Source: Desulfobacteraceae bacterium (GTDB lineage Bacteria > Desulfobacterota > Desulfobacteria > Desulfobacterales > UBA11574). From it: DNA of 37,494 bases. The position numbers were made by a program, and so were the translations under genes. The first letter of the stretch is position 1. Each line of letters opens with the position of its first letter. This document shows, in pieces, positions 30,031 to 37,494 of this stretch. The stretch lies in the NCBI GenBank assembly GCA_030604635.1, contig JAUVVL010000003.1:1-37494 (forward strand). The letters are read 5' to 3'. The notes under the pieces were generated by a model. It saw only the letters and a program-made list of their open reading frames with translations, was not told the origin of the DNA and made no database searches.

Positions 30031-31413
30031 TTATATCTCTAACCATTCATCGGGAGGTTCTTCTTCCTCAATTTCAGCTTTCTTTTCTTTTTGAGGCTGA
30101 AGGATTTGCTTGGCGGACTTCTTTTCTTCAGGGGCTTCGAGGTCTACTTCGAGCTTTTCCTCGGCTTTGAGAAGGTCGGTTTCGGGCTTTTCTTCCTCGT
30201 CACGCAGTTGGGCAACGTGCTGCTTCTCCAGTTCAGCCTGCTTTATGGCGGCCGCGTGTTGATTTTGTAGCTTGGCGATCTTGGCTTCAAAGTGCTGGCG
30301 GGTTTTCTTGTGCGCCTGTCGTTCCTTGGTTAGCATATCTGATACCAACTGCGCCTCCTCGGTTGATCTATGTTTGAGCGCCTCAATTTCGGACTTCGTC
30401 TCGTTTTGGAGTTGAGCGATCTCTGAGGCGTACTTCATTTTGAGGGCTTGGAGGTCGTGCTTATGCTTTTCCTCCGTGGCGTGTAACTGGGTAAGGCTCT
30501 TCTTCTCCGCTTTACTGACAGCGCCCTGGAGCTTGGCGATCTTGGCTTCAAAGTGCTGGTGCGCCTGCTGCTGCTCCTCGGTCAATTTCTGTTCCAGCGC
30601 ATTGAGCGACTCCTGTGCTCTGTTGATCTCGTTATGCCTGGTTTGAACAAGAGCCGCAAGTTCCTTCTCTCGTTTCTGCCCCTTGCCTATTTCCCTTTTG
30701 AGCCAGTTCACCTCCTTGGCGAATTCTTTAAGCCTCTTATTGTCTGAGAGAATCTTGCGGTTACTATCGTGAAGTTTCTTTGTGAGACGGGTGATCTCTA
30801 AATCCTTCTTAACTGTCTGGTCATCCATGACATCTGTCTGAACCGGGACAGCAAGGTTCGCATTACCTTCGCTTTCTATTGTCTCATCAAGGAATTCAAA
30901 GATCGGGGCAAGTTCATCATCGGCAAGCTCTTCCAGGTTGATTGTATCTGCATCCTCGTTTACTTCGGCAGATGACCCTCCCAACCGGCCGGATACGTCC
31001 TCATTGTCCTCCGGTGGAAGCGGTCCTGTCCGGGATTCCAATCCAATAAGCTCATGGAGTTTGTGGAGGAGCTTTTTACGGGATAAGCTTTTCTTGTCCA
31101 GGTAAACGTCCGCGCGCATCTTCGTTTTTCCGTGCAAGGCAAAATCGCGCGGTGAGATCGTTGTCGTGGCGAGGATAATCGGTATTTTGTTCCCGACAGC
31201 TTTCCTGACTTTAGTGTAAAGCGTATAACCAAACTTGTCGGGGGAGTCGACAGCGATGAAAATGGCATTAGGTTTGAGTGCTTTTACCCTGTGGATATCG
31301 TTGGACCGGGGGTCTGCAACCTGAACTTCAAATCCGTACGCACCAAGAGAGCTTTTGAGGAGGGTTAAAAAAGCTATGTCATTATCGAAGACCAGAACGC
31401 GGCGGGATGCCAT
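30031..31413 (-). CDS. Pseudo-receiver domain plus coiled-coil protein (FrzS/AglZ-like architecture)
   Basis: N-terminal receiver-like segment with Ala at the phosphoacceptor position (PNAIFIAVD), acidic linker, long heptad-rich C-terminus. Confidence 0.8.
   Translation of the reverse strand: MASRRVLVFDNDIAFLTLLKSSLGAYGFEVQVADPRSNDIHRVKALKPNAIFIAVDSPDKFGYTLYTKVRKAVGNKIPIILATTTISPRDFALHGKTKMRADVYLDKKSLSRKKLLHKLHELIGLESRTGPLPPEDNEDVSGRLGGSSAEVNEDADTINLEELADDELAPIFEFLDETIESEGNANLAVPVQTDVMDDQTVKKDLEITRLTKKLHDSNRKILSDNKRLKEFAKEVNWLKREIGKGQKREKELAALVQTRHNEINRAQESLNALEQKLTEEQQQAHQHFEAKIAKLQGAVSKAEKKSLTQLHATEEKHKHDLQALKMKYASEIAQLQNETKSEIEALKHRSTEEAQLVSDMLTKERQAHKKTRQHFEAKIAKLQNQHAAAIKQAELEKQHVAQLRDEEEKPETDLLKAEEKLEVDLEAPEEKKSAKQILQPQKEKKAEIEEEEPPDEWLEI
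30269..30559. repeat. 30-bp exact intragenic direct repeat (QHFEAKIAKL)
   Basis: AGCTTGGCGATCTTGGCTTCAAAGTGCTGG at 30269-30298 and 30530-30559. Confidence 0.9.
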
Positions 31414-31610
31414 AGATATACTCCTTCCGGTCTAAGGCCTCAGTTAGTTTCAATATATTATTTTAAGGCAGATGCTAATATTTTTCTTTATTATTATTGA
31501 TACTTATTTAACCGTCCAAAAGCAAGTGGGAGACGAATTTTAAACGGACTGAAAAACCCAATAATAACATTAAATTAATGACATAGTAATTTCAGATTGT
31601 CAAAACTCTT

Positions 31611-31922
31611 GGTAACGTTCAAAAATTGCGGCATCAATTTTTACTTTTACAAACTACGTTTGATTGTTTCGTAAAAAGTCCAAAAATTCTCAAAGTCGCT
31701 CCCAAAAGACTTTTTACGTCACAATCAAGTTTGATACCCATGTAAAAAGTCCTTTTTACATGGATTAAGGAATTTAGGGATTAAGGAATTGCGAATTATT
31801 TAAAGACATTACGAATGCGTAAAATTGAATAATTCAGCAAGTTTTCACTTTTTACGTCACAATCAAGTTTAAAAGGAAATACTTTCTATATTTTAAAGAT
31901 GCCGTAACTTTTTAACGTTACC
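31611..31922. mobile_element. 312-bp MITE with GGTAAC ends (family E) containing nested family-A elements
   Basis: GGTAACGTTCAAAAATTGCGGCATC / GATGCCGTAACTTTTTAACGTTACC; flanks AAACTCTT / AAATTCTT (8-bp duplication, 1 mismatch). Confidence 0.75.
31662..31864. mobile_element. Two tandem family-A elements
   Basis: 31662-31726 and 31733-31864, bounded by ACGTTT, AAGTTT and AAGTTT; right end ACTTTTTACGTCACAATC occurs twice. Confidence 0.65.
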
Positions 31923-32046
31923 AAATTCTTAAAGTTATTTCCAGCAATTATAGGTAAAAAGATAAATTTTTGTTATTTAAGGGCTGGTCGATTCTATTCG
32001 ATATTACTATTTATCTGATCGGCTTTTTTGGGTGAGATACTCTTGT

Positions 32047-33465
32047 TTACCACCCCAGAGTCAAATATTTATGAATGGAATTGGCAGCCTCTCTGCCGGC
32101 ACCCATTGCCAAAATAACGGTGGCCGAACCGGTTACAATGTCACCGCCGGCCCAGACACCTTGCTTGCTGGTCTTTCCGGTTTCAGGTTCCGCTACGATA
32201 TAGCCCCATTTGTTTAGATTCAGCCCTTCAGTGGTTTTCGCCAGCAGAGGATTGGCCCCGGCGCCCACGGCAATAATGGCAAGATCGCACTCAAGCTCGA
32301 ATTCCGAGCCTTCTATGGGAACCGGACGGCGTCGCCCGGAATCATCAGGTTCACCAAGCTCCATCTTGAGTCCTTCCATACCGATGAGGCGTCCATTTTC
32401 GTCCCCGATGAATTTCATCGGGGCGGTAAGAAAATAGAATTCCACCCCTTCTTCTTCGGCATGGTGGACTTCCGCACCCCTTGCAGGCACCTCTGTTCTT
32501 GAACGTCGGTAAACAATAAGGGATTTTTCAGCACCAAGACGAATGGCGGTTCGGGCGGAATCCATGGCCACATTACCCGCACCGAGCGTAATCACCTTTT
32601 TACCTCTGACAATTGGCGTATCATACTCGGGGAAAAGATATGCTTTCATAAGATTGGTCCGGGTCAGATATTCATTGGCAGAGAATACGCTGATAAGGTT
32701 TTCGCCCGGGATTCTCAAAAAGGTGGGCAGACCGGCTCCGACACCTACAAAAACGGCATCAAAGCCCTCTTCAAAGAGTTCATCCACTGTTACAATCCGG
32801 CCCACCACCGCATTGCGCACAAGTTTTACACCAAGCCTTTCCAGGAAATTAACTTCAGAGAAGACGATTTCCTTTGGAAGCCTGAACTCTGGAATTCCGT
32901 ATACCAGGACTCCGCCTGGCTTGTGAAACGCTTCAAAAATCGTCACTTCATGGCCTTTAAGAATAAGATCTCCGGCAACGGTCAGCCCGGCCGGTCCGGA
33001 GCCGACAACAGCCACCTTCTTCCCGGTTGATTCCGCTTTGGGAGGCAATTCACCCTTGCCGTACATTCTCTCGTAGTCGGCAACAAACCGCTCAAGGTTG
33101 CCTACGGCAACAGGGTCATCTTTTTTACCAACGATACACTTGCCTTCACACTGTATTTCCTGGGGACATACCCTGCCGCAGACAGCAGGAAGCGCATTCG
33201 TTTCCCAAATCTTTCGGATGGATTCGGCAAACTTACCTTCAGCTATGAGCTTGACAAATCCGGGGATATCGACTTCCACAGGACAGTCAGTAATACAGAG
33301 CGGTTTTTTGCATTGCAGACATCTTTCCGCCTCTTTCATGGCCGCTTCCTGGCTGAGTCCAAATGGAACTTCGTCAAAGTTTCTGGCCCTGACAGCCGGT
33401 TCCTGTTCCGGCATTGGTTGCTTGGGTATTTTTTCTTTTTTAGGTTTTTTACCTGGTTCCGCCAT
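32047..33465 (-). CDS. nfnB: NfnB/SudA-type flavoprotein (glutamate-synthase-beta-like; large subunit of transhydrogenase NfnAB)
   Basis: CLQCKKPLC..CP, CGRVCPQE.QCE, GSGPAG, GAGNVAMD and GGDIVTG motifs; adjacent to nfnA; start at ATG 33465 after GGAGG. Confidence 0.9.
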   Translation of the reverse strand: MAEPGKKPKKEKIPKQPMPEQEPAVRARNFDEVPFGLSQEAAMKEAERCLQCKKPLCITDCPVEVDIPGFVKLIAEGKFAESIRKIWETNALPAVCGRVCPQEIQCEGKCIVGKKDDPVAVGNLERFVADYERMYGKGELPPKAESTGKKVAVVGSGPAGLTVAGDLILKGHEVTIFEAFHKPGGVLVYGIPEFRLPKEIVFSEVNFLERLGVKLVRNAVVGRIVTVDELFEEGFDAVFVGVGAGLPTFLRIPGENLISVFSANEYLTRTNLMKAYLFPEYDTPIVRGKKVITLGAGNVAMDSARTAIRLGAEKSLIVYRRSRTEVPARGAEVHHAEEEGVEFYFLTAPMKFIGDENGRLIGMEGLKMELGEPDDSGRRRPVPIEGSEFELECDLAIIAVGAGANPLLAKTTEGLNLNKWGYIVAEPETGKTSKQGVWAGGDIVTGSATVILAMGAGREAANSIHKYLTLGW

Positions 33466-33552
33466 AATATCCTCCATCCAAAAAGCGCCTAAAGTTACGA
33501 TTGCGTTTGATTCTTTAACCTTTTAACAACTTTTAACCTTAGGCACTACTTA

Positions 33553-34395
33553 TCAATTAATCCGACGCCAGTTTTTGCTCTCCCACTCATGCAAAGAACG
33601 GATCTCTTCATCTTGATAACCTTTTTGCCGGGTCAGGAGAATGTCCCAATCTACTTGATGACCGTCAAATTCAGGGCCATCAACACAAGCGAACTTTGTT
33701 GTACCACCAACTGATACCCGGCAGCAACCACACATGCCGGTACCATCTACCATTATGGAGTTAAGGTGAACTATTGTCTTAATACCTAAAGGCTTAGTCG
33801 CCTCTGAACAAGTTTTCATCATATAGGTACAGCCAATGGCAAAAACAAGATCTATCTTATCTCCTTCATCCACTATTTGATTAATCCGATCAGAGATCCA
33901 TCCTTGAGGGGCATGTGAACCATCACCTGTAGTTACTAAGAACTGATCGCTCACCTTGCGCAATTCATCTTCCCAATAAAGGAGATATTTGCTCCTTGCT
34001 TCGATAATTGTAATAACCTTGTTGCCTGCCTCCTTCATGGCCCGGGCAATTGGCATAATAGCAGCTATGCCATAACAACCACCGACACAGGCGAGCGTGC
34101 CGATTTTATCGATATGTGCCGGAATGCCGAGAGGTCCCACAACGCTCTCAATGGAATCTCCAGCATTTAATGTGGCAAAACGATGGGTTGTAGTCCCCAC
34201 CTCCATGAACACAATGGTGATAGAGCCCTCTTTACGATCCCAATCAGCAATCGTCAGCGGAATCTTTTCTCCTTTCTCGTCAAGAATAATAATAACAAAC
34301 TGACCGGGCTGGGCTTTTTTAGCTATACCCGATGCTGCAATTTTAACCAAATGTATATTTGGCGCTAACTCTTGCTTTACTAATATCTTAAACAA
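33553..34395 (-). CDS. nfnA: NfnA/SudB-type FAD/NAD-binding [2Fe-2S] subunit
   Basis: PGQFVI, GEKIPLTIAD and MVDGTGMCGCCRV..CVDGPEF motifs; TTG start at 34395 after GGAGGT. Confidence 0.92.
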   Translation of the reverse strand: MFKILVKQELAPNIHLVKIAASGIAKKAQPGQFVIIILDEKGEKIPLTIADWDRKEGSITIVFMEVGTTTHRFATLNAGDSIESVVGPLGIPAHIDKIGTLACVGGCYGIAAIMPIARAMKEAGNKVITIIEARSKYLLYWEDELRKVSDQFLVTTGDGSHAPQGWISDRINQIVDEGDKIDLVFAIGCTYMMKTCSEATKPLGIKTIVHLNSIMVDGTGMCGCCRVSVGGTTKFACVDGPEFDGHQVDWDILLTRQKGYQDEEIRSLHEWESKNWRRIN

Positions 34396-34411
34396 TTTGC
34401 ACCTCCAAATA

Positions 34412-37231
34412 TTACTGCGCCGCAACCTTCTCCAACCTAACTGCGCAAACCTTAAACTCAGGAATTTTAGCCACAGGATCAAGAGCCGGATTTGTTAGTT
34501 GATTCGTGGGGCTTTCGGCAAAGTGAAAGTTCATACTCACAACATTAACCGGCGAAACATCCGTCACTTTTGCTTTGGCCTTAACAGCCCCCCTCCTTGA
34601 TATAACCTGTATCATCTCGCCGTCACTTATATCCAATTGGGAAGCATCCTTTGGATTTATCTCCACCATACCTTCGCCATCCAGCACATTCAGACCCCTT
34701 ACCTTGCGTGTCATGGTGCCGGTATGAAAATGGTACAGGCTTCTTTCGGTGGTAAGGATCAGTGGATATTCATCATCTGGTAGTTCTGCCGGCGGTTTGT
34801 ATTCTAATGGGATAAATTTACCCTTACCCCTGGCAAATTTTTCGGTATGCAGTATAGGTGTACCAGGATGATCCTTGGTCGGGCACGGCCACTGAATACT
34901 GCCATCCTCAAGCCTGTCATAGCTGATGCCTCCATAGCTTGGCGTCAGCCCGGAAATTTCCTCCATAATCTGAGACGGTTTTTCAAAATCAAAACCCTTG
35001 GCTCCCATCCTTTGTGCAATCTGGCAGGTAATCCACCAATCGGACTTAGAGATCCCAATAGGCTCAATAGCCTTTCTAACCCTCTGAACTCTTCTGTCAG
35101 TATTAGTAAATGTTCCATCCTTCTCAGCAAACGTTGCACTCGGTAGAACCACGTCAGCCAATTGGGCGGTCTCTGACATGAAAATATCCTGGACTACAAG
35201 AAAATCAAGCGTTTCCAAAGATTCCTGTGCATGCTGTGCATCAGGGTCGCTCAATACCGGGTTTTCACCAATAAGATAGAGCCCTTTTATTTCCTTTTTG
35301 TGGGCTGCCTCGAGCATCTCAAGCAAGGTAAGCCCGATTTCACCAGGCAATTGAGCACCCCAGGCATTTTCAAACTTTTTCCTTATTTCTTCATTCACTA
35401 CCGCTTGATAACCGGTAAATACATTAGGCAAGCCGCCCATATCGCAGGCGCCCTGAACATTATTCTGGCCCCTTAAAGGATTTACACCCGTTGACGGCTT
35501 CCCGACATTTCCGGTAAGCATGGCAAGGTTTGCTGTAGCCATTACATTATCTGTACCGTGAGTGTGCTGGGTGATTCCCATTGCATAGAGAATTGTGGAA
35601 GGTGTATCAGTGGCATATATCCTTGCCGCCTCAATTATCTTGTCCTTGGGAATCCCGGTAAGCTCTTCAACCCTTTCCAGGTCAAACTCTTTAAGAGAAT
35701 CCTTGAAGGCGTCAAAGTCTTCGCATTTCTCTTCAATAAAATCCCTGTCAAGGAGATCTTCCTCTACTATGACCCTCATCATTCCCATGAGAAGGGCAAC
35801 GTCACTTCCGGGTTTTTGCTGGAGCCAAAGATCAGCATGTCGTACCAGTTCTATTTCCCTTGGATTGGCAACAATGAGCTTTGTCCCATTTTTAGAGGCC
35901 TGCTTTACCTTCATACCGATTACAGGGTGTGCATAGGTAGTATTAGTACCTATTGCCAGGATACATTTGGCATGCTCGATTTCCTCTATGCTGTTAGTCA
36001 TTGCACCGGCTCCAAAAGAGGCGGCCAGACCGGCCACCGTTGAAGAATGTCAGAGCCGCGCACAGTGGTCGAGGTTGTTGGTGCCAAGCACTGCCCTCGC
36101 AAACTTCTGGATAACATAGTTTTCTTCATTGGTGCACTTTGCCGAAGTTATTACAGCCATCTCATTAGCATTGTAAGTGCCCATTTTTTCAGCGACTAAA
36201 TCCAATGCTTCATCCCAGCTTGCCTCCTCAAAATTCCCATTTTTACGGATAAGAGGAACCGTTAGCCTGTCTGTATGGTGAACAAATTCAGCTATCCCGA
36301 ACCTACCTTTTACACATGCCTGGCCTTGATTTACGGTTCCATCTCCTTTGGGGCTGACGCCGATAATTCTATCTTTCTTAACCAGAAGCTCTAACTGACA
36401 ACCTACTCCGCAATAGGGGCAGGTAGATAATACCCGTGTATCTGCAACGCCATCCCACTTGTTATTCCATTCTGTTAAAGCTCCTGTTGGGCAAACATCA
36501 ACACATGCCCCACAAAATTGGCATCCGGATTCTTCCAAACTAGGCGCTTTGCTTCCGATTGTTGCGTTGCCGTCTTGAAAAACGTAACCAACAGTATTAT
36601 TGACTCTTACTTCCTGACATGCCCTTACACACCTGGTGCAAGCAATACAGAGGTTGTAGTTTCGCTCAAAAAAGGAATCACTTTTTAACGAAGGCGTTCC
36701 TTTATATTCATAGGGTGGCAGTGATTCGTCTACACCTATATATGCGGATACCTCCTGTAACTCGCACTTAAAGTTATTGGGGCAGAATTCACAGCCGGTT
36801 ATTATTGAGGCCTTGCGTATACCTCCCCTAAAGGGATCACAGTCCTCCTTTCGATCACAGGCGAGACAGACATTTGGGTGTTCAGCTAAAATAGTATTTA
36901 GATTCCCCCTGCGTTTTTGCTGGATTTCCGGGGTATTGGTCTGAACAACCATGCCCTCACCAACCTCGGTGGTGCAGGCGGTAGGGAGGTCATCCTTACC
37001 CTCTATTTTGACCAGGCAGAGCTGACAACCCTCATACTCGCTTGATGAGTTATCATTCTTTACCTCTTCTTTACCCCGATAGACAGCTTCGAAGGGTTTA
37101 ACTTGCCTTGATGGCGGCAAATTAGGGTGAGAACACAGTGCTGGAATATAAATGCCGGCACTCCGCGCTGCCTCTAAAATCGTAGCTCCTTGCTCAACAG
37201 TAACCTTGGTATTATCAATGGTTAAATTCAT
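34412..37231 (-). CDS. fdhF: Selenocysteine-containing cytoplasmic formate dehydrogenase alpha subunit with N-terminal Fe-S domains
   Basis: Two ORFs are in one frame across TGA 36052-36050 in DHCARL-U-HSSTV; CPYCGVGC, PLRGQNNVQG and PEFK motifs; no Tat signal; start at 37231 or 37240. Confidence 0.93.
36020..36052 (-). promoter_or_regulatory. UGA-Sec codon and bacterial SECIS hairpin
   Basis: UGA, 11 nt, then GGUGGCC-GGUCU-GGCCGCC stem-loop; same spacing and similar loop to the E. coli fdhF SECIS. Confidence 0.88.
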
Positions 37232-37315
37232 TTTTCCCATCACCTTCAATAAAATTATTTTCAAGACTTGTTGGTTGATAGATTATGAAATGCTCGGACA
37301 AATTTAATTGCTGTG

Positions 37316-37344
37316 TCTATATTATTCAGTTTATGAATTGTCAA
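37316..37344 (-). promoter_or_regulatory. Sigma70-like promoter for fdh-nfnAB
   Basis: TTGACA (37344-37339), 17 nt, TATAGA (37321-37316). Confidence 0.5.
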
Positions 37345-37494
37345 GAATAAAACTTGACAAACTCGTACCCAACTTTTTCAAGGCAGCCACGCCTCCCTGA
37401 AGATTGTATGTTTGTTGCACTCCCATCTGGTCCAGTCACCTGGGCCTTGCAGGAACGGACGCCTGTGTTGCAGATAAGGACTATTTTCTTATCT
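37331..37494 (-). pseudogene. C-terminal rhodanese domain (CoA-disulfide-reductase type), frameshifted and cut by the window edge
   Basis: DKKIVLICNTGVRS.KAQVT / DQMGV..TYNLQGG, with a frameshift near 37433. Confidence 0.6.

What the first reader, a model, noticed from the sequence alone, without database searches (positions are those of the whole stretch)
32047..37344. Selenocysteine formate dehydrogenase in an operon with NfnAB: candidate formate-coupled electron-bifurcating complex
Seen: promoter, fdhF(Sec), 16 nt, nfnA, 87 nt, nfnB on one strand, with no NuoE/NuoF-like (HylBC), FdhB or membrane subunit in the unit. The Fdh has NuoG/HydA-like N-terminal [2Fe-2S], His-ligated and 2x[4Fe-4S] motifs and no Tat signal. 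Known: NfnAB couples reduced ferredoxin and NADH to NADP+ reduction by flavin bifurcation. Inference: the Fdh ferredoxin-like domain could feed NfnB directly, linking formate/CO2 to NADH and NADPH. This is the best protein-level candidate for an uncharacterised system in the window.
Basis: partly seen in the sequence, partly recalled or inferred. Interest (0 to 1): 0.72.

Follow-up and report, generated by a model that had tools for sequence, protein, structure and literature searches.

The report
Formate dehydrogenase wired to specialised NfnAB
Three adjacent genes most likely build one enzyme in which a selenium-containing formate dehydrogenase is plugged into a remodelled small subunit of the NfnAB transhydrogenase, so that formate may take the place that NADH normally has in this energy-saving enzyme.

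Summary
On the minus strand lie a Sec-type formate dehydrogenase with a NuoG-like Fe-S front end, then nfnA after 16 nt, then nfnB after 75-87 nt.

The window's NfnA belongs to a distinct clade, here called NfnA*. Two residues of the nucleotide-binding domain are replaced together (Gly to Cys, Pro to Cys), with no intermediates in 170 loci. Every NfnA* with enough flank (39 of 39 rows) sits directly behind a NuoG/FdhA-like gene. In three loci the two are one polypeptide.

Where that upstream protein has lost its catalytic residues, NuoE/NuoF genes precede it (17 of 17). Where it is a competent FDH, as here, they do not (0 of 11).

NfnB is of the ordinary local lineage, so the FDH's specific partner is NfnA*, not NfnB.

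Best reading: formate/CO2 replaces NADH/NAD+ as the third substrate of an Nfn-type enzyme.

One paper predicts an fdhF2-nfnB enzyme in one sentence. This scan has already met the five-gene NuoEF form on other DNA.

The parts
34412..37230 (-). fdhA: cytoplasmic selenocysteine formate dehydrogenase with a NuoG-like N-terminal Fe-S domain (frame open from TTG 37264; likely start ATG 37230)
   Evidence: TIGR01591 891 bits; Fer2_4, NADH-G_4Fe-4S_3, Fer4_Nqo3, Molybdop_Fe4S4, Molybdopterin, Molydop_binding; U405-H406 and the catalytic Arg are present
36050..36052 (-). in-frame TGA read as selenocysteine (U405)
   Evidence: Cys stands at this column in 12 of 13 competent homologues next to NfnA*, and TGA in L012
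35997..36055 (-). SECIS-like hairpin starting at the TGA
   Evidence: Rfam SECIS_3 48.4 bits, E 4.5e-9 (below gathering 63); hairpin with GGUCU loop; fold energy not unusual (z -0.45)
36440..37231 (-). N-terminal Fe-S domain of FdhA: [2Fe-2S] with a 25-residue insert, a His-ligated cluster motif with a Cys-rich insert, and two ferredoxin-type [4Fe-4S] motifs
   Evidence: invariant Cys columns in 56 homologues; the 25-residue insert is shared, among the 30 rows displayed, only with L018 and L012
34396..34411 (-). 16-nt fdhA-nfnA spacer with GGAGGTG ribosome-binding site
   Evidence: gaps of 0-48 nt between the upstream gene and nfnA* in 21 related loci
33553..34395 (-). nfnA*: NfnA/NfnS-type FAD and [2Fe-2S] subunit of the variant clade (Cys107, Tyr108, Gly at the first Asp of TDDG, Cys189)
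   Evidence: 341 bits to 5jca_S; member of a 39-row clade (99* SH-aLRT)
33479..33552 (-). strong hairpin followed by U5 in the nfnA-nfnB spacer (possible attenuator, partial terminator or processing/stability element)
   Evidence: -23 kcal/mol, z -3.25, 0 of 200 shuffles fold as well
32047..33477 (-). nfnB: NfnB/NfnL-type subunit (two [4Fe-4S], bifurcating FAD, NADP(H) site); alternative start 33465
   Evidence: 597.9 bits to 4ylf_B; invariant Cys, Glu and Y-R-R columns in 71 sequences
37316..37344 (-).
   Evidence: letters present; not called by the scan; count of sites equals chance

Best explanation
The three genes encode one soluble complex, FdhA-NfnA*-NfnB.

Roles of the parts:
- FdhA oxidises formate or reduces CO2 at a W/Mo-bisPGD-selenocysteine site. 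It passes electrons along its NuoG-type chain of Fe-S clusters.
- That chain is docked on NfnA*. This small Nfn subunit keeps the [2Fe-2S] ligands and the flavin-side Asn, but its NAD(H) pocket is remodelled, so it no longer needs NADH.
- NfnA* passes electrons to the bifurcating FAD of an ordinary NfnB. NfnB holds the NADP(H) site and the two [4Fe-4S] clusters that lead to ferredoxin.

Proposed reaction: formate + reduced ferredoxin + 2 NADP+ gives CO2 + oxidised ferredoxin + 2 NADPH, and the reverse when formate is kept at micromolar level. Formate/CO2 thus stands where NADH/NAD+ stands in canonical Nfn.

Shown: genes, domains, Sec machinery, synteny, clade structure, fusions, the NuoEF/competent-FDH dichotomy.

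Inferred: physical contact, loss of NADH use, the reaction.

Setting: a sulfate reducer with the Wood-Ljungdahl pathway.
For: 1. Synteny. Of 78 loci sampled by FdhA similarity, 15 carry nfnA and nfnB next to fdhA, in Desulfobacteraceae, Chloroflexota and Methanotrichaceae. Contig ends make this a lower bound.

2. nfnAB is normally stand-alone. Of 80 loci sampled by NfnB similarity, only 3 have an Fdh-like gene directly before nfnA.

3. The NfnA* signature. In 170 loci the two positions read Gly/Pro in 128, Cys/Cys in 41 and Asp/Pro in 1, never one Cys alone. The residue after the first Cys is Tyr or Phe in 41 of 41. The TDDG motif is changed in 41 of 41, against 126 of 129 kept in canonical rows.

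4. Upstream gene. All 39 Cys/Cys rows with flank have a NuoG/FdhA-like gene directly upstream; 2 lack flank. Among canonical rows with flank the figure is 7 of 97.

5. Monophyly. The 39 distinct NfnA* rows form one clade (99* SH-aLRT).

6. Fusion. L224, L245 and L246 are single ORFs of 830-845 aa that join the NuoG-like part to NfnA*.

7. Dead scaffolds. Fifteen upstream proteins have lost Cys/Sec-His-Arg yet are kept 0-48 nt before nfnA*.

8. Dichotomy. NuoF-like genes lie directly upstream in 17 of 17 dead or fused loci with flank, and in 0 of 11 competent-FDH loci (L224 read by hand).

9. NfnB history differs. The window's NfnB is 79% identical to stand-alone Desulfobacterota NfnB and 57-59% to Chloroflexota fdh-linked ones. 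Holding the NfnA*-partnered NfnB together costs 423 lnL, p-AU 0.0003.

10. Parallel case. P. furiosus NfnII carries an aromatic residue in the same Gly loop, and its NAD site is reported occluded (passages of PMC12221290 and PMC12506544).

11. Precedent. A purified FDH with an NfnB-like NADP subunit uses NADP and ferredoxin (T. onnurineus Fdh3, PMC8965080, abstract and sections 12 and 17).

12. Host genome. It has Fhs, AcsB/CdhC and DsrA.
Against: - No protein-protein evidence exists. Complex prediction could not be run.
- That the changed motifs line the NAD(H) pocket is recalled from the FNR/PyrK fold, not measured here. Loss of NADH binding is inference.
- At standard potentials, formate and ferredoxin are both stronger reductants than NADPH. 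Coupling is therefore only needed or useful when formate is micromolar (my own Nernst estimate: about -310 mV at 10 uM formate and 0.1 bar CO2).
- This nfnAB is the only nfnAB found in a 92.7%-complete genome, so it may also have to do the ordinary Nfn job.
- A hairpin with a U-run lies between nfnA and nfnB, and the spacer is 140-373 nt in four relatives. nfnB may therefore be expressed partly on its own.
- The genome has two orphan NuoE-NuoF-small NuoG sets (domains shown for C341 only) that could join in trans.
- NfnII, the parallel case, was concluded to be non-bifurcating.
- The clade was defined by the two Cys, and the AU group was named after seeing a tree.
Confidence: 0.5

Rival explanations
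1. Two separate enzymes that are merely co-transcribed. A ferredoxin-dependent FdhA uses its N-terminal Fe-S domain to talk to free ferredoxin. An ordinary NfnAB exchanges electrons among ferredoxin, NADH and NADPH. They are linked only through shared pools in the Wood-Ljungdahl pathway.
For: - It is the only nfnAB in the genome.
- NfnB is of the ordinary lineage.
- nfn genes lie beside C1 genes in acetogens (Liang 2019, PMC6405883, passages).
- In L017 and L034, NfnAB sits beside FDHs that already have their own GltD-like NADPH module.
- The catalytic subunit of T. onnurineus Fdh3 works with ferredoxin by itself.
Against: It does not explain four things:
- why NfnA here belongs to a clade found only behind NuoG/FdhA-like genes (39 of 39);
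- why that clade changed three nucleotide-site motifs together;
- why catalytically dead homologues are kept in the same place;
- why scaffold and NfnA* are fused in three loci.
Confidence: 0.2
2. FdhA replaces ferredoxin on the low-potential branch and docks on the [4Fe-4S] domain of NfnB. NADH stays the substrate of NfnA: formate + NADH + 2 NADP+ gives CO2 + NAD+ + 2 NADPH.
For: - It is thermodynamically the most natural swap. CO2/formate and ferredoxin have similar standard potentials (established values, recalled).
- GltD-like modules are fused to NuoG-like Fe-S domains and to FdhA in other loci (L036, L017, L014, L034) and in Stn/NfnABC structures (8oh5_C and 9bov_A).
Against: - NfnB shows no co-inheritance with FdhA.
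- The fused GltD-like modules are a different paralogue, about 42% identical to NfnB.
- The changes, the fusions and the tight spacing all concern NfnA, not NfnB.
- The NAD-site motifs of NfnA are not conserved.
Confidence: 0.1
3. The three proteins are the visible part of a larger enzyme that recruits a NuoE/NuoF (Bfu-type) core encoded elsewhere (C341 or C123). This would match the five-gene relatives, so that formate, NADH, NADPH and ferredoxin all meet in one complex.
For: - In 17 of 17 dead-scaffold relatives NuoEF is part of the operon.
- The genome has two NuoE-NuoF-small NuoG sets without a catalytic partner (domains confirmed for C341 only).
- The window ends 230 nt upstream of fdhA.
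Against: - 0 of 11 competent-FDH relatives with flank have NuoF upstream.
- In L175 and L012 the three genes are bracketed by genes on the other strand.
- The orphan sets carry their own small NuoG-like subunit.
Confidence: 0.15

Closest known systems
NfnAB / NfnSL (Thermotoga maritima 4YLF, Pyrococcus furiosus NfnI 5JCA)
   Same: NfnB scores 597.9 bits to 4ylf_B, with all cluster, FAD and NADP(H) columns kept. NfnA scores 341 bits to 5jca_S, with the [2Fe-2S] ligands and the flavin-side Asn kept.
   Different: NfnA has Cys/aromatic in the Gly loop, Cys for Pro in the xGP motif, and a changed TDDG. It is always preceded by a NuoG/FdhA-like gene. NADH use is doubtful.
Pyrococcus furiosus NfnII ('Xfn', 5VJ7)
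   Same: An NfnSL pair whose small subunit has an altered Gly loop (aromatic residue at the third Gly) and does not use NAD(H). A redox protein or oxidoreductase was once considered as third substrate (passages of PMC12506544).
   Different: NfnII is blocked by an extra loop and an Arg, and has His instead of Asn over the flavin. It was concluded to be a non-bifurcating ferredoxin:NADP+ reductase. The window's NfnA* keeps Asn and has a dedicated partner gene.
Stn / NfnABC (Nfn-Bfu) transhydrogenases (8OH5, 9BOV, 9N5U)
   Same: They join a NuoG-like Fe-S/pterin-like subunit to a GltD/NfnB-like NADPH flavoprotein (Schut 2022, PMC9304861, passages).
   Different: There the GltD-like module is inserted in the NuoG-like chain. 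The pterin-like domain is called catalytically dead only in this scan's unchecked notes, which I did not verify. NuoEF form the bifurcating core and there is no NfnA. Here the pterin domain is a competent Sec-FDH, NfnA* is present and NuoEF are absent from the unit.
NADP-dependent formate dehydrogenases with a GltD/NfnB-like subunit: Thermococcus onnurineus Fdh3; Moorella thermoacetica FdhAB
   Same: FdhA works with an NfnB-like NADP(H)-binding flavoprotein. Fdh3 was purified and uses NADP+ and ferredoxin (PMC8965080). Moorella FdhB is described as having 4Fe-4S, ferredoxin-binding and NADP-binding domains (Sewell 2017, passage).
   Different: Those enzymes have no NfnA-type subunit; Fdh3 uses two small Fe-S proteins as links. 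I could not compare the Moorella sequence directly.
HylABC-FdhF2 / Fdh-Bfu bifurcating formate dehydrogenases
   Same: FdhA with a NuoG-type wire. The same genome has such a cluster on C205: NuoE, NuoF, a Fer2/HdrA-like 1081-aa protein and a second Sec-FdhA.
   Different: Those depend on NuoE/NuoF (FMN, NADH). The window's unit has none and has NfnA*B instead.
Five-gene unit NuoE-NuoF-dead NuoG/FDH scaffold-NfnA-NfnB
   Same: Same NfnA* clade, same scaffold architecture, same order scaffold-NfnA*-NfnB, and scaffold-NfnA* fusions.
   Different: The window's scaffold is a catalytically competent selenocysteine FDH, and the NuoEF genes are missing. The electron-input module seems to have been exchanged.
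Predicted fdhF2-nfnB enzyme of Seep-SRB1g (Murali et al. 2023, PMC10553843)
   Same: [quoted passage not shown]
   Different: No analysis of NfnA, of partners or of distribution. Its S11 Fig was not seen, so I cannot say whether it is the same gene order.

Membership tests
Formate dehydrogenase alpha (FdhF type, TIGR01591) | Whole-protein score over the curated cut-off | tested here: met
   891.1 bits against cut-off 666.25
Formate dehydrogenase alpha (FdhF type, TIGR01591) | Sec or Cys metal ligand followed by His, plus the catalytic Arg | tested here: met
   U405-H406 and the Arg of NPLRGQNNVQG; the same columns were used to sort relatives
Formate dehydrogenase alpha (FdhF type, TIGR01591) | Means to read TGA as Sec: SECIS, selA, selB | tested here: met
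   SECIS_3 48.4 bits, E 4.5e-9, below gathering; selB 374.7 bits and selA 598.3 bits over their cut-offs
NfnAB / NfnSL | Large subunit: GltD-like, two [4Fe-4S], FAD, NADP(H) site | tested here: met
   Fer4_20 and Pyr_redox_2; 597.9 bits to 4ylf_B; invariant Cys, Glu and Y303-R304-R305 in 71 sequences
NfnAB / NfnSL | Small subunit: PyrK-like, FAD, Asp/Cys3 [2Fe-2S] | tested here: met
   NF004862 394 bits; 341 bits to 5jca_S; D217, C222, C225 and C237 conserved in 84 rows
NfnAB / NfnSL | Small-subunit NAD(H) site: GGGxG loop, TDDG and xGP motifs as in NfnI and T. maritima NfnA (their role in NAD binding is recalled from the FNR/PyrK fold) | tested here: not met
   GGCYG, TGDGS and IGC in the window. 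The same three changes occur in 41 of 41 NfnA* rows, against Gly/Pro in 128 of 129 others
NfnAB / NfnSL | [quoted passage not shown] | not testable with these tools
   needs enzyme assays
Bfu-type (HylABC/NuoEF-dependent) formate dehydrogenase | NuoE- and NuoF-like subunits encoded with FdhA | tested here: not met
   None lies downstream in the window. Upstream is cut by the contig end. 0 of 11 competent relatives have NuoF upstream. NuoF-like genes exist elsewhere in the genome
NuoG/FdhA-like scaffold + NfnA* + NfnB family (undescribed; defined here and in earlier notes of this scan) | NfnA inside the Cys/Cys clade | tested here: met
   The window falls in the 39-row clade, 99* SH-aLRT
NuoG/FdhA-like scaffold + NfnA* + NfnB family (undescribed; defined here and in earlier notes of this scan) | NuoG-architecture gene directly before nfnA*, nfnB directly after | tested here: met
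   16-nt and 75-87-nt spacers; the same order in all 39 rows with flank
NuoG/FdhA-like scaffold + NfnA* + NfnB family (undescribed; defined here and in earlier notes of this scan) | Physical complex of the three proteins | not testable with these tools
Fusions in L224, L245 and L246 are indirect support
NADP-dependent FdhAB (Moorella type) / Fdh3 (Thermococcus type) | FdhA plus a GltD/NfnB-like NADP(H) subunit and no NfnA | tested here: not met
   An NfnB-like subunit is present, but an NfnA-type subunit stands between the two genes. Fer-GltD 'FdhB-like' genes as in L014 and L034 were not found next to an Fdh in this genome

The most novel reading that the evidence does not exclude
A formate-dependent Nfn. 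An NfnSL-type flavin-based electron-bifurcating enzyme has given up the NAD(H) pocket of its small subunit in favour of a hard-wired catalytic subunit. CO2/formate becomes the 'high-potential' couple of NADPH bifurcation at the micromolar formate levels of sediments.

The window would be one of two natural versions of a single modular family. In that family the same NuoG-type wire into NfnA* is fed either by NuoEF (NADH) or by a W/Mo-selenocysteine site (formate). The paired Cys107/Cys189 would form part of the new junction, for instance as ligands or a dithiol at the subunit interface.
Probability: 0.35. Interest if true: 0.82.

Novelty: new variant of a known kind. Interest (0 to 1): 0.68.

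Why it matters
Nfn is the textbook flavin-based bifurcating enzyme, and its three substrates have been taken as fixed. A natural series in which the NADH site is traded for a wired-in module would show that NfnSL is modular, as Bfu and Hdr enzymes are. The module would be NuoEF in some lineages and a live formate dehydrogenase in others.

It would also give sulfate reducers, Dehalococcoidia and Methanothrix a direct link between formate/CO2, ferredoxin and NADPH in the Wood-Ljungdahl pathway. That would change how their energy budgets and formate exchange are modelled.

The two-Cys signature is a simple marker for annotating such genes, which are now named ordinary NfnA or 'dihydroorotate dehydrogenase electron transfer subunit'. 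It also offers a testable candidate for the old question of what 'X' could be in Xfn-type enzymes.

Tried and rejected
- Complex prediction (FdhA residues 12-275 + NfnA + NfnB, with alignments A1-A3). No verdict was obtained, and I did not try again.
- RNA evidence for co-transcription. No RNA holder was listed.
- AU test on the full 87-row NfnB set. It did not finish in three calls. I replaced it with a 35-row subset of my choice under LG+G4.
- Promoter.
- Terminator after nfnB. None was convincing.
- SECIS by fold energy alone. Not distinctive (z -0.45); the Rfam model was more telling.
- Papers. Demmer 2015 (PMC4571952) is not held. 'Moth_2314' gave 0 papers. I could therefore not check the NAD-site residues of NfnA or the nature of Moorella FdhB at source.
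- Literature for the combination. Eight searches found one predictive sentence (Murali 2023). They found nothing on an NfnA clade tied to NuoG/FdhA-like genes. Supplementary figures (S11 Fig of Murali 2023) were not seen.
- Considered and rejected: that a Fer-GltD 'FdhB' for this Fdh is encoded elsewhere in the genome. The three other GltD-like genes are an RnfB-GltD fusion behind rnf genes and two HdrL-like giants.
- Considered and rejected: that the window's nfnAB is a spare copy. No other nfnAB was found.
Full report
**What is in the window.** The window is a whole contig (C234, 37,494 bases) of a 3.55-Mb, 376-contig genome that is 92.7% complete.

- On the minus strand a frame of 950 codons runs from 37264 to 34412 with one in-frame TGA at 36052-36050. 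ATG 37230, behind GAAGGTGA, is the likely start.
- After a 16-nt spacer with GGAGGTG comes a TTG-started gene, 34395-33553.
- After 75 nt (ATG 33477) or 87 nt (ATG 33465) comes a third gene, ending at 32047.

Domains and scores:
- The first protein has the NuoG-like set Fer2_4, NADH-G_4Fe-4S_3 and Fer4_Nqo3, followed by Molybdop_Fe4S4, Molybdopterin and Molydop_binding. It passes TIGR01591 (891 bits, cut-off 666).
- The second matches NF004862 (394 bits) and P. furiosus NfnI small subunit 5jca_S (341 bits).
- The third matches TIGR01316 (598 bits) and T. maritima NfnB 4ylf_B (597.9 bits).

Selenocysteine is credible. An Rfam SECIS_3 match starts at the TGA (48.4 bits, E 4.5e-9, under the gathering score). 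selB and selA are present. The codon is followed by His, and the catalytic Arg is in place.

The rest of the contig holds housekeeping genes. Upstream of fdhA only 230 nt remain.

**Is the order unique?** No.

- Sampling by FdhA (78 loci) gave 15 loci with nfnA and nfnB beside fdhA:
 - 8 have the window's order (L012, L018, L032, L037, L042, L044, L050, L063).
 - 1 has an extra Fer-GltD gene between (L034).
 - 3 have nfnA-nfnB in front of a Fer2-GltD-FdhA fusion (L017, L021, L081).
 - 3 are Methanotrichaceae with fdhA-nfnA and a divergent nfnB (L069, L070, L083).
 - Many loci are cut by contig ends.
- Sampling by NfnB (80 loci, 63-79% identical, mostly Desulfobacterota) showed that nfnAB is normally stand-alone. 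Only L130 (the L018 contig), L116 and L123 have an Fdh-like gene directly before nfnA.

**The small subunit is special.** The window's NfnA is about 50% identical to the NfnA of those Desulfobacterota whose NfnB is 75-79% identical to the window's NfnB. It is 53-62% identical to the fdh-linked NfnA of most Chloroflexota loci, though only 46-49% to the Methanotrichaceae ones.

- In a tree of 87 NfnA, 18 of 20 fdh-linked rows fall on one side of a 97* branch.
- In the NfnB tree the window sits among stand-alone Desulfobacterota.
- The alignment shows a subclade with three joint changes in the nucleotide-binding domain:
 - GGG[TV]G becomes GGC[YF]G.
 - TDDGS loses its first Asp.
 - xIGP becomes xGC.

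A third sampling, by NfnA (80 loci), tested this independently.
- 32 loci carry the Cys/Cys form. Of these, 30 have a P0001-like gene (29-86% identical) directly upstream. The other two have 61 and 866 nt of flank.
- Of the 48 canonical loci, only L208 and L212 have one.

Pooled over 170 loci (L018, L130 and L179 are one contig):
- The two positions read Gly/Pro 128 times, Cys/Cys 41 times and Asp/Pro once, never one Cys alone.
- The residue after the first Cys is Tyr (31) or Phe (10).
- TDDG is changed in 41 of 41, against kept in 126 of 129.
- In a tree of 84 rows all 39 distinct Cys/Cys rows form one clade (99*). The window lies in an 11-row Desulfobacteraceae clade (99*). For that tree I dropped the two duplicate rows, rows with stops or under 230 aa, and two of every three canonical rows without an Fdh.

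I call this clade NfnA*.

It keeps the [2Fe-2S] ligands and the Asn that lies on the flavin in NfnI (the role of that Asn comes from PMC12506544, passages).

**What stands in front of NfnA\*.** All upstream proteins tested have the NuoG/FdhA architecture (14 of 14). They fall into groups:
- 15 rows keep Cys or Sec-His and the Arg. These are the Desulfobacteraceae relatives at 79-86% identity, L050 and the three Methanotrichaceae. All are Cys-type except the window and L012.
- 15 have lost these residues.
- 9 are cut by contig ends or are fusions.
 - L224, L245 and L246 are single ORFs of 830-845 aa: NuoG-like Fe-S domains, a truncated pterin domain and NfnA*.

The dead and fused forms are preceded by NuoE- and NuoF-like genes on the same strand in 17 of 17 loci with flank. 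Sixteen were found by script; L224 was read. The competent forms have none in 0 of 11 loci with at least 1.2 kb of flank. L177 has a NuoEF pair on the other strand downstream.

In L175 and L012 the three genes are bracketed by genes of the other strand.

**NfnB goes its own way.** Holding together the nine NfnB that are partnered with NfnA* costs 423 log-likelihood units (p-AU 0.0003). This used 35 rows chosen by me, under LG+G4, with the group named after seeing the tree. The window's NfnB is sister to that of L095, a stand-alone pair (97*).

So fdhA and nfnA* are inherited together, and they work with whatever NfnB lineage is at hand.

**The genome around it.**
- This is the only nfnAB found. 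The other three GltD-like genes are an RnfB-GltD fusion and two HdrL-like proteins.
- A second Sec-FdhA without the N-terminal extension lies on C205, with NuoE, NuoF and a Fer2/HdrA-like 1081-aa protein. A third, periplasmic-type enzyme lies on C178.
- Two NuoE-NuoF-small NuoG sets stand alone on C341 and C123. Domains were confirmed for C341 only; C123 is read from the NuoF hit, ORF sizes and a P0001 N-terminal tblastn hit.
- Fhs, AcsB/CdhC and DsrA are present. The organism is therefore a sulfate reducer with the Wood-Ljungdahl pathway.
- Four of five close relatives have a second NfnB-like gene at 62-63% identity. In the three I fetched, it follows an NfnA* and a truncated scaffold of the fusion type.

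**How it most likely works.**

Shown: a competent Sec-FDH of NuoG architecture, an NfnA* and an ordinary NfnB in a conserved, tightly spaced order; exclusive association of NfnA* with such scaffolds; fusions; retention of dead scaffolds; and the either/or of NuoEF and a live active site.

Inferred: the scaffold's Fe-S chain docks on NfnA*, whose NAD(H) pocket is no longer used. Electrons enter the 'NADH branch' of Nfn either from NADH through NuoEF, or, as here, from formate through the pterin site. The reaction would be formate + reduced ferredoxin + 2 NADP+ = CO2 + oxidised ferredoxin + 2 NADPH.

By my own Nernst estimate, CO2/formate rises from about -430 mV to about -310 mV at 10 uM formate and 0.1 bar CO2, close to the cellular NAD couple. 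NADPH bifurcation to CO2 and ferredoxin then becomes feasible only at such low formate. At higher formate the enzyme would simply funnel formate and ferredoxin electrons into NADPH.

That the three motifs line the NAD(H) site is recalled from the FNR/PyrK fold. The nearest documented case is P. furiosus NfnII, with an aromatic residue in the same loop and an occluded NAD site. NfnII, however, was concluded not to bifurcate.

**Rivals.**
- Separate enzymes sharing an operon. This does not explain the NfnA* pattern.
NfnB phylogeny, the fusions and the motif changes speak against it.
- Recruitment of a NuoEF core in trans. This remains open.

No complex prediction could be made.

**What is known.**
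- FDHs with an NfnB-like NADP subunit are established: T. onnurineus Fdh3, purified, NADP- and ferredoxin-linked (PMC8965080, abstract and sections 12 and 17); and Moorella FdhAB as described in Sewell 2017 (passage).
- Stn/NfnABC join NuoG-like and GltD-like modules with NuoEF (passages of PMC9304861).
- Murali 2023 predicts in one sentence a bifurcating fdhF2-nfnB enzyme in Seep-SRB1g (its figure was not seen).
- Eight literature searches found nothing on an NfnA clade tied to NuoG/FdhA-like genes.
- Earlier notes of this scan describe the five-gene NuoEF-dead scaffold-NfnAB unit, its fusions and a remodelled small subunit on other DNA. I reached the same unit independently, before reading them.

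New here:
- the live, selenocysteine, NuoEF-less three-gene form;
- the two-Cys marker;
- the clean dichotomy between NuoEF and a competent active site;
- the discordant history of NfnB.

**Verdict.** This is a new variant of a known kind. Confidence is moderate (0.5) in the proposed mechanism and higher, about 0.7, that the three proteins form one complex.

Noticed in passing
window 33479-33552 (-): The nfnA-nfnB spacer folds into a long hairpin followed by U5 (-23 kcal/mol, z -3.25). In four relatives this spacer is 140-373 nt. It may attenuate or process the transcript, so that nfnB is expressed differently from fdhA-nfnA.
   Followed up: partly
window 31414-32046: The 630-nt AT-rich gap behind nfnB holds several copies, in both orientations, of a 20-24-nt motif (exact 24-nt copies at 31709-31732 and 31847-31870). 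A 27-nt inverted repeat at 31609-31635 / 31898-31924 (89%) lies around them. It could be a regulator-binding array or a small mobile element remnant, and it sits before a response-regulator gene (30031-31413).
   Followed up: partly
window 36990-37070 (-), FdhA residues about 51-77: A 25-residue insert in the [2Fe-2S] loop of FdhA is shared with L018 and L012 and absent from the other 27 of the 30 homologues displayed.
   Followed up: partly
window 36770-36870 (-); also about 15 of the other 29 displayed rows of alignment A1 (e.g. L034, L042, L050, L069; about 16 of 30 with the window): The His-ligated cluster motif of the FdhA front end carries a Cys-rich insert that adds three Cys. It is present in about 16 of the 30 rows displayed, whether or not NfnA* follows. 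It might bind a further cluster or metal.
   Followed up: no
window 37380-37494 (-), contig end: The end of a rhodanese-like gene (a C-x2-G-x-R-S active-site loop, then a typical C-terminal part in another frame) seems to be frameshifted. This was read only, and the contig ends here.
   Followed up: no
G000 C205:1646-11134 (L090): A second cytoplasmic Sec-FdhA (679 aa, no Fe-S extension) lies in a cluster with NuoE, NuoF, a 1081-aa Fer2/4Fe-4S/HdrA-like protein and a CCG-domain protein. This is a candidate Bfu/Hdr-linked FDH.
   Followed up: partly
G000 C112:5994-8084 (L091): A 696-aa fusion of an RnfB-like Fe-S domain with a GltD/NfnB-like NADPH flavoprotein lies directly behind rnf genes. 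It is a possible NADPH-linked Rnf.
   Followed up: no
L036:6983-11080; L017:6983-11122: Dehalococcoidia encode single polypeptides of 1365-1380 aa joining a [2Fe-2S] domain, a GltD-like NADPH module and a competent FdhA (Cys in L036, Sec in L017). In L017 this is preceded by nfnA-nfnB. The architecture is that of StnC/NfnA(Bfu), but with a live FDH.
   Followed up: partly
L254, L255, L256 (G001:C31, G003:C38, G002:C6): Close relatives carry two NfnA*-type modules: the fdhA-nfnA*-nfnB operon and a truncated scaffold-NfnA* form with its own NfnB at 60-63% identity. No further NfnB above 47% identity, hence no canonical nfnAB, appeared in the NfnB search of those genomes. The window's genome has only the first.
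   Followed up: partly
L014:1673-4756: A 1027-aa fusion of NuoF (FMN, NADH_4Fe-4S) with a GltD-like NADPH module lies in front of a Fer-GltD gene and an FdhA in Dehalococcoidia. L184 and L193 show adjacent or slightly overlapping NuoF-like and GltD-like tblastn hits that may be the same fusion; their reading frames were not checked.
   Followed up: no
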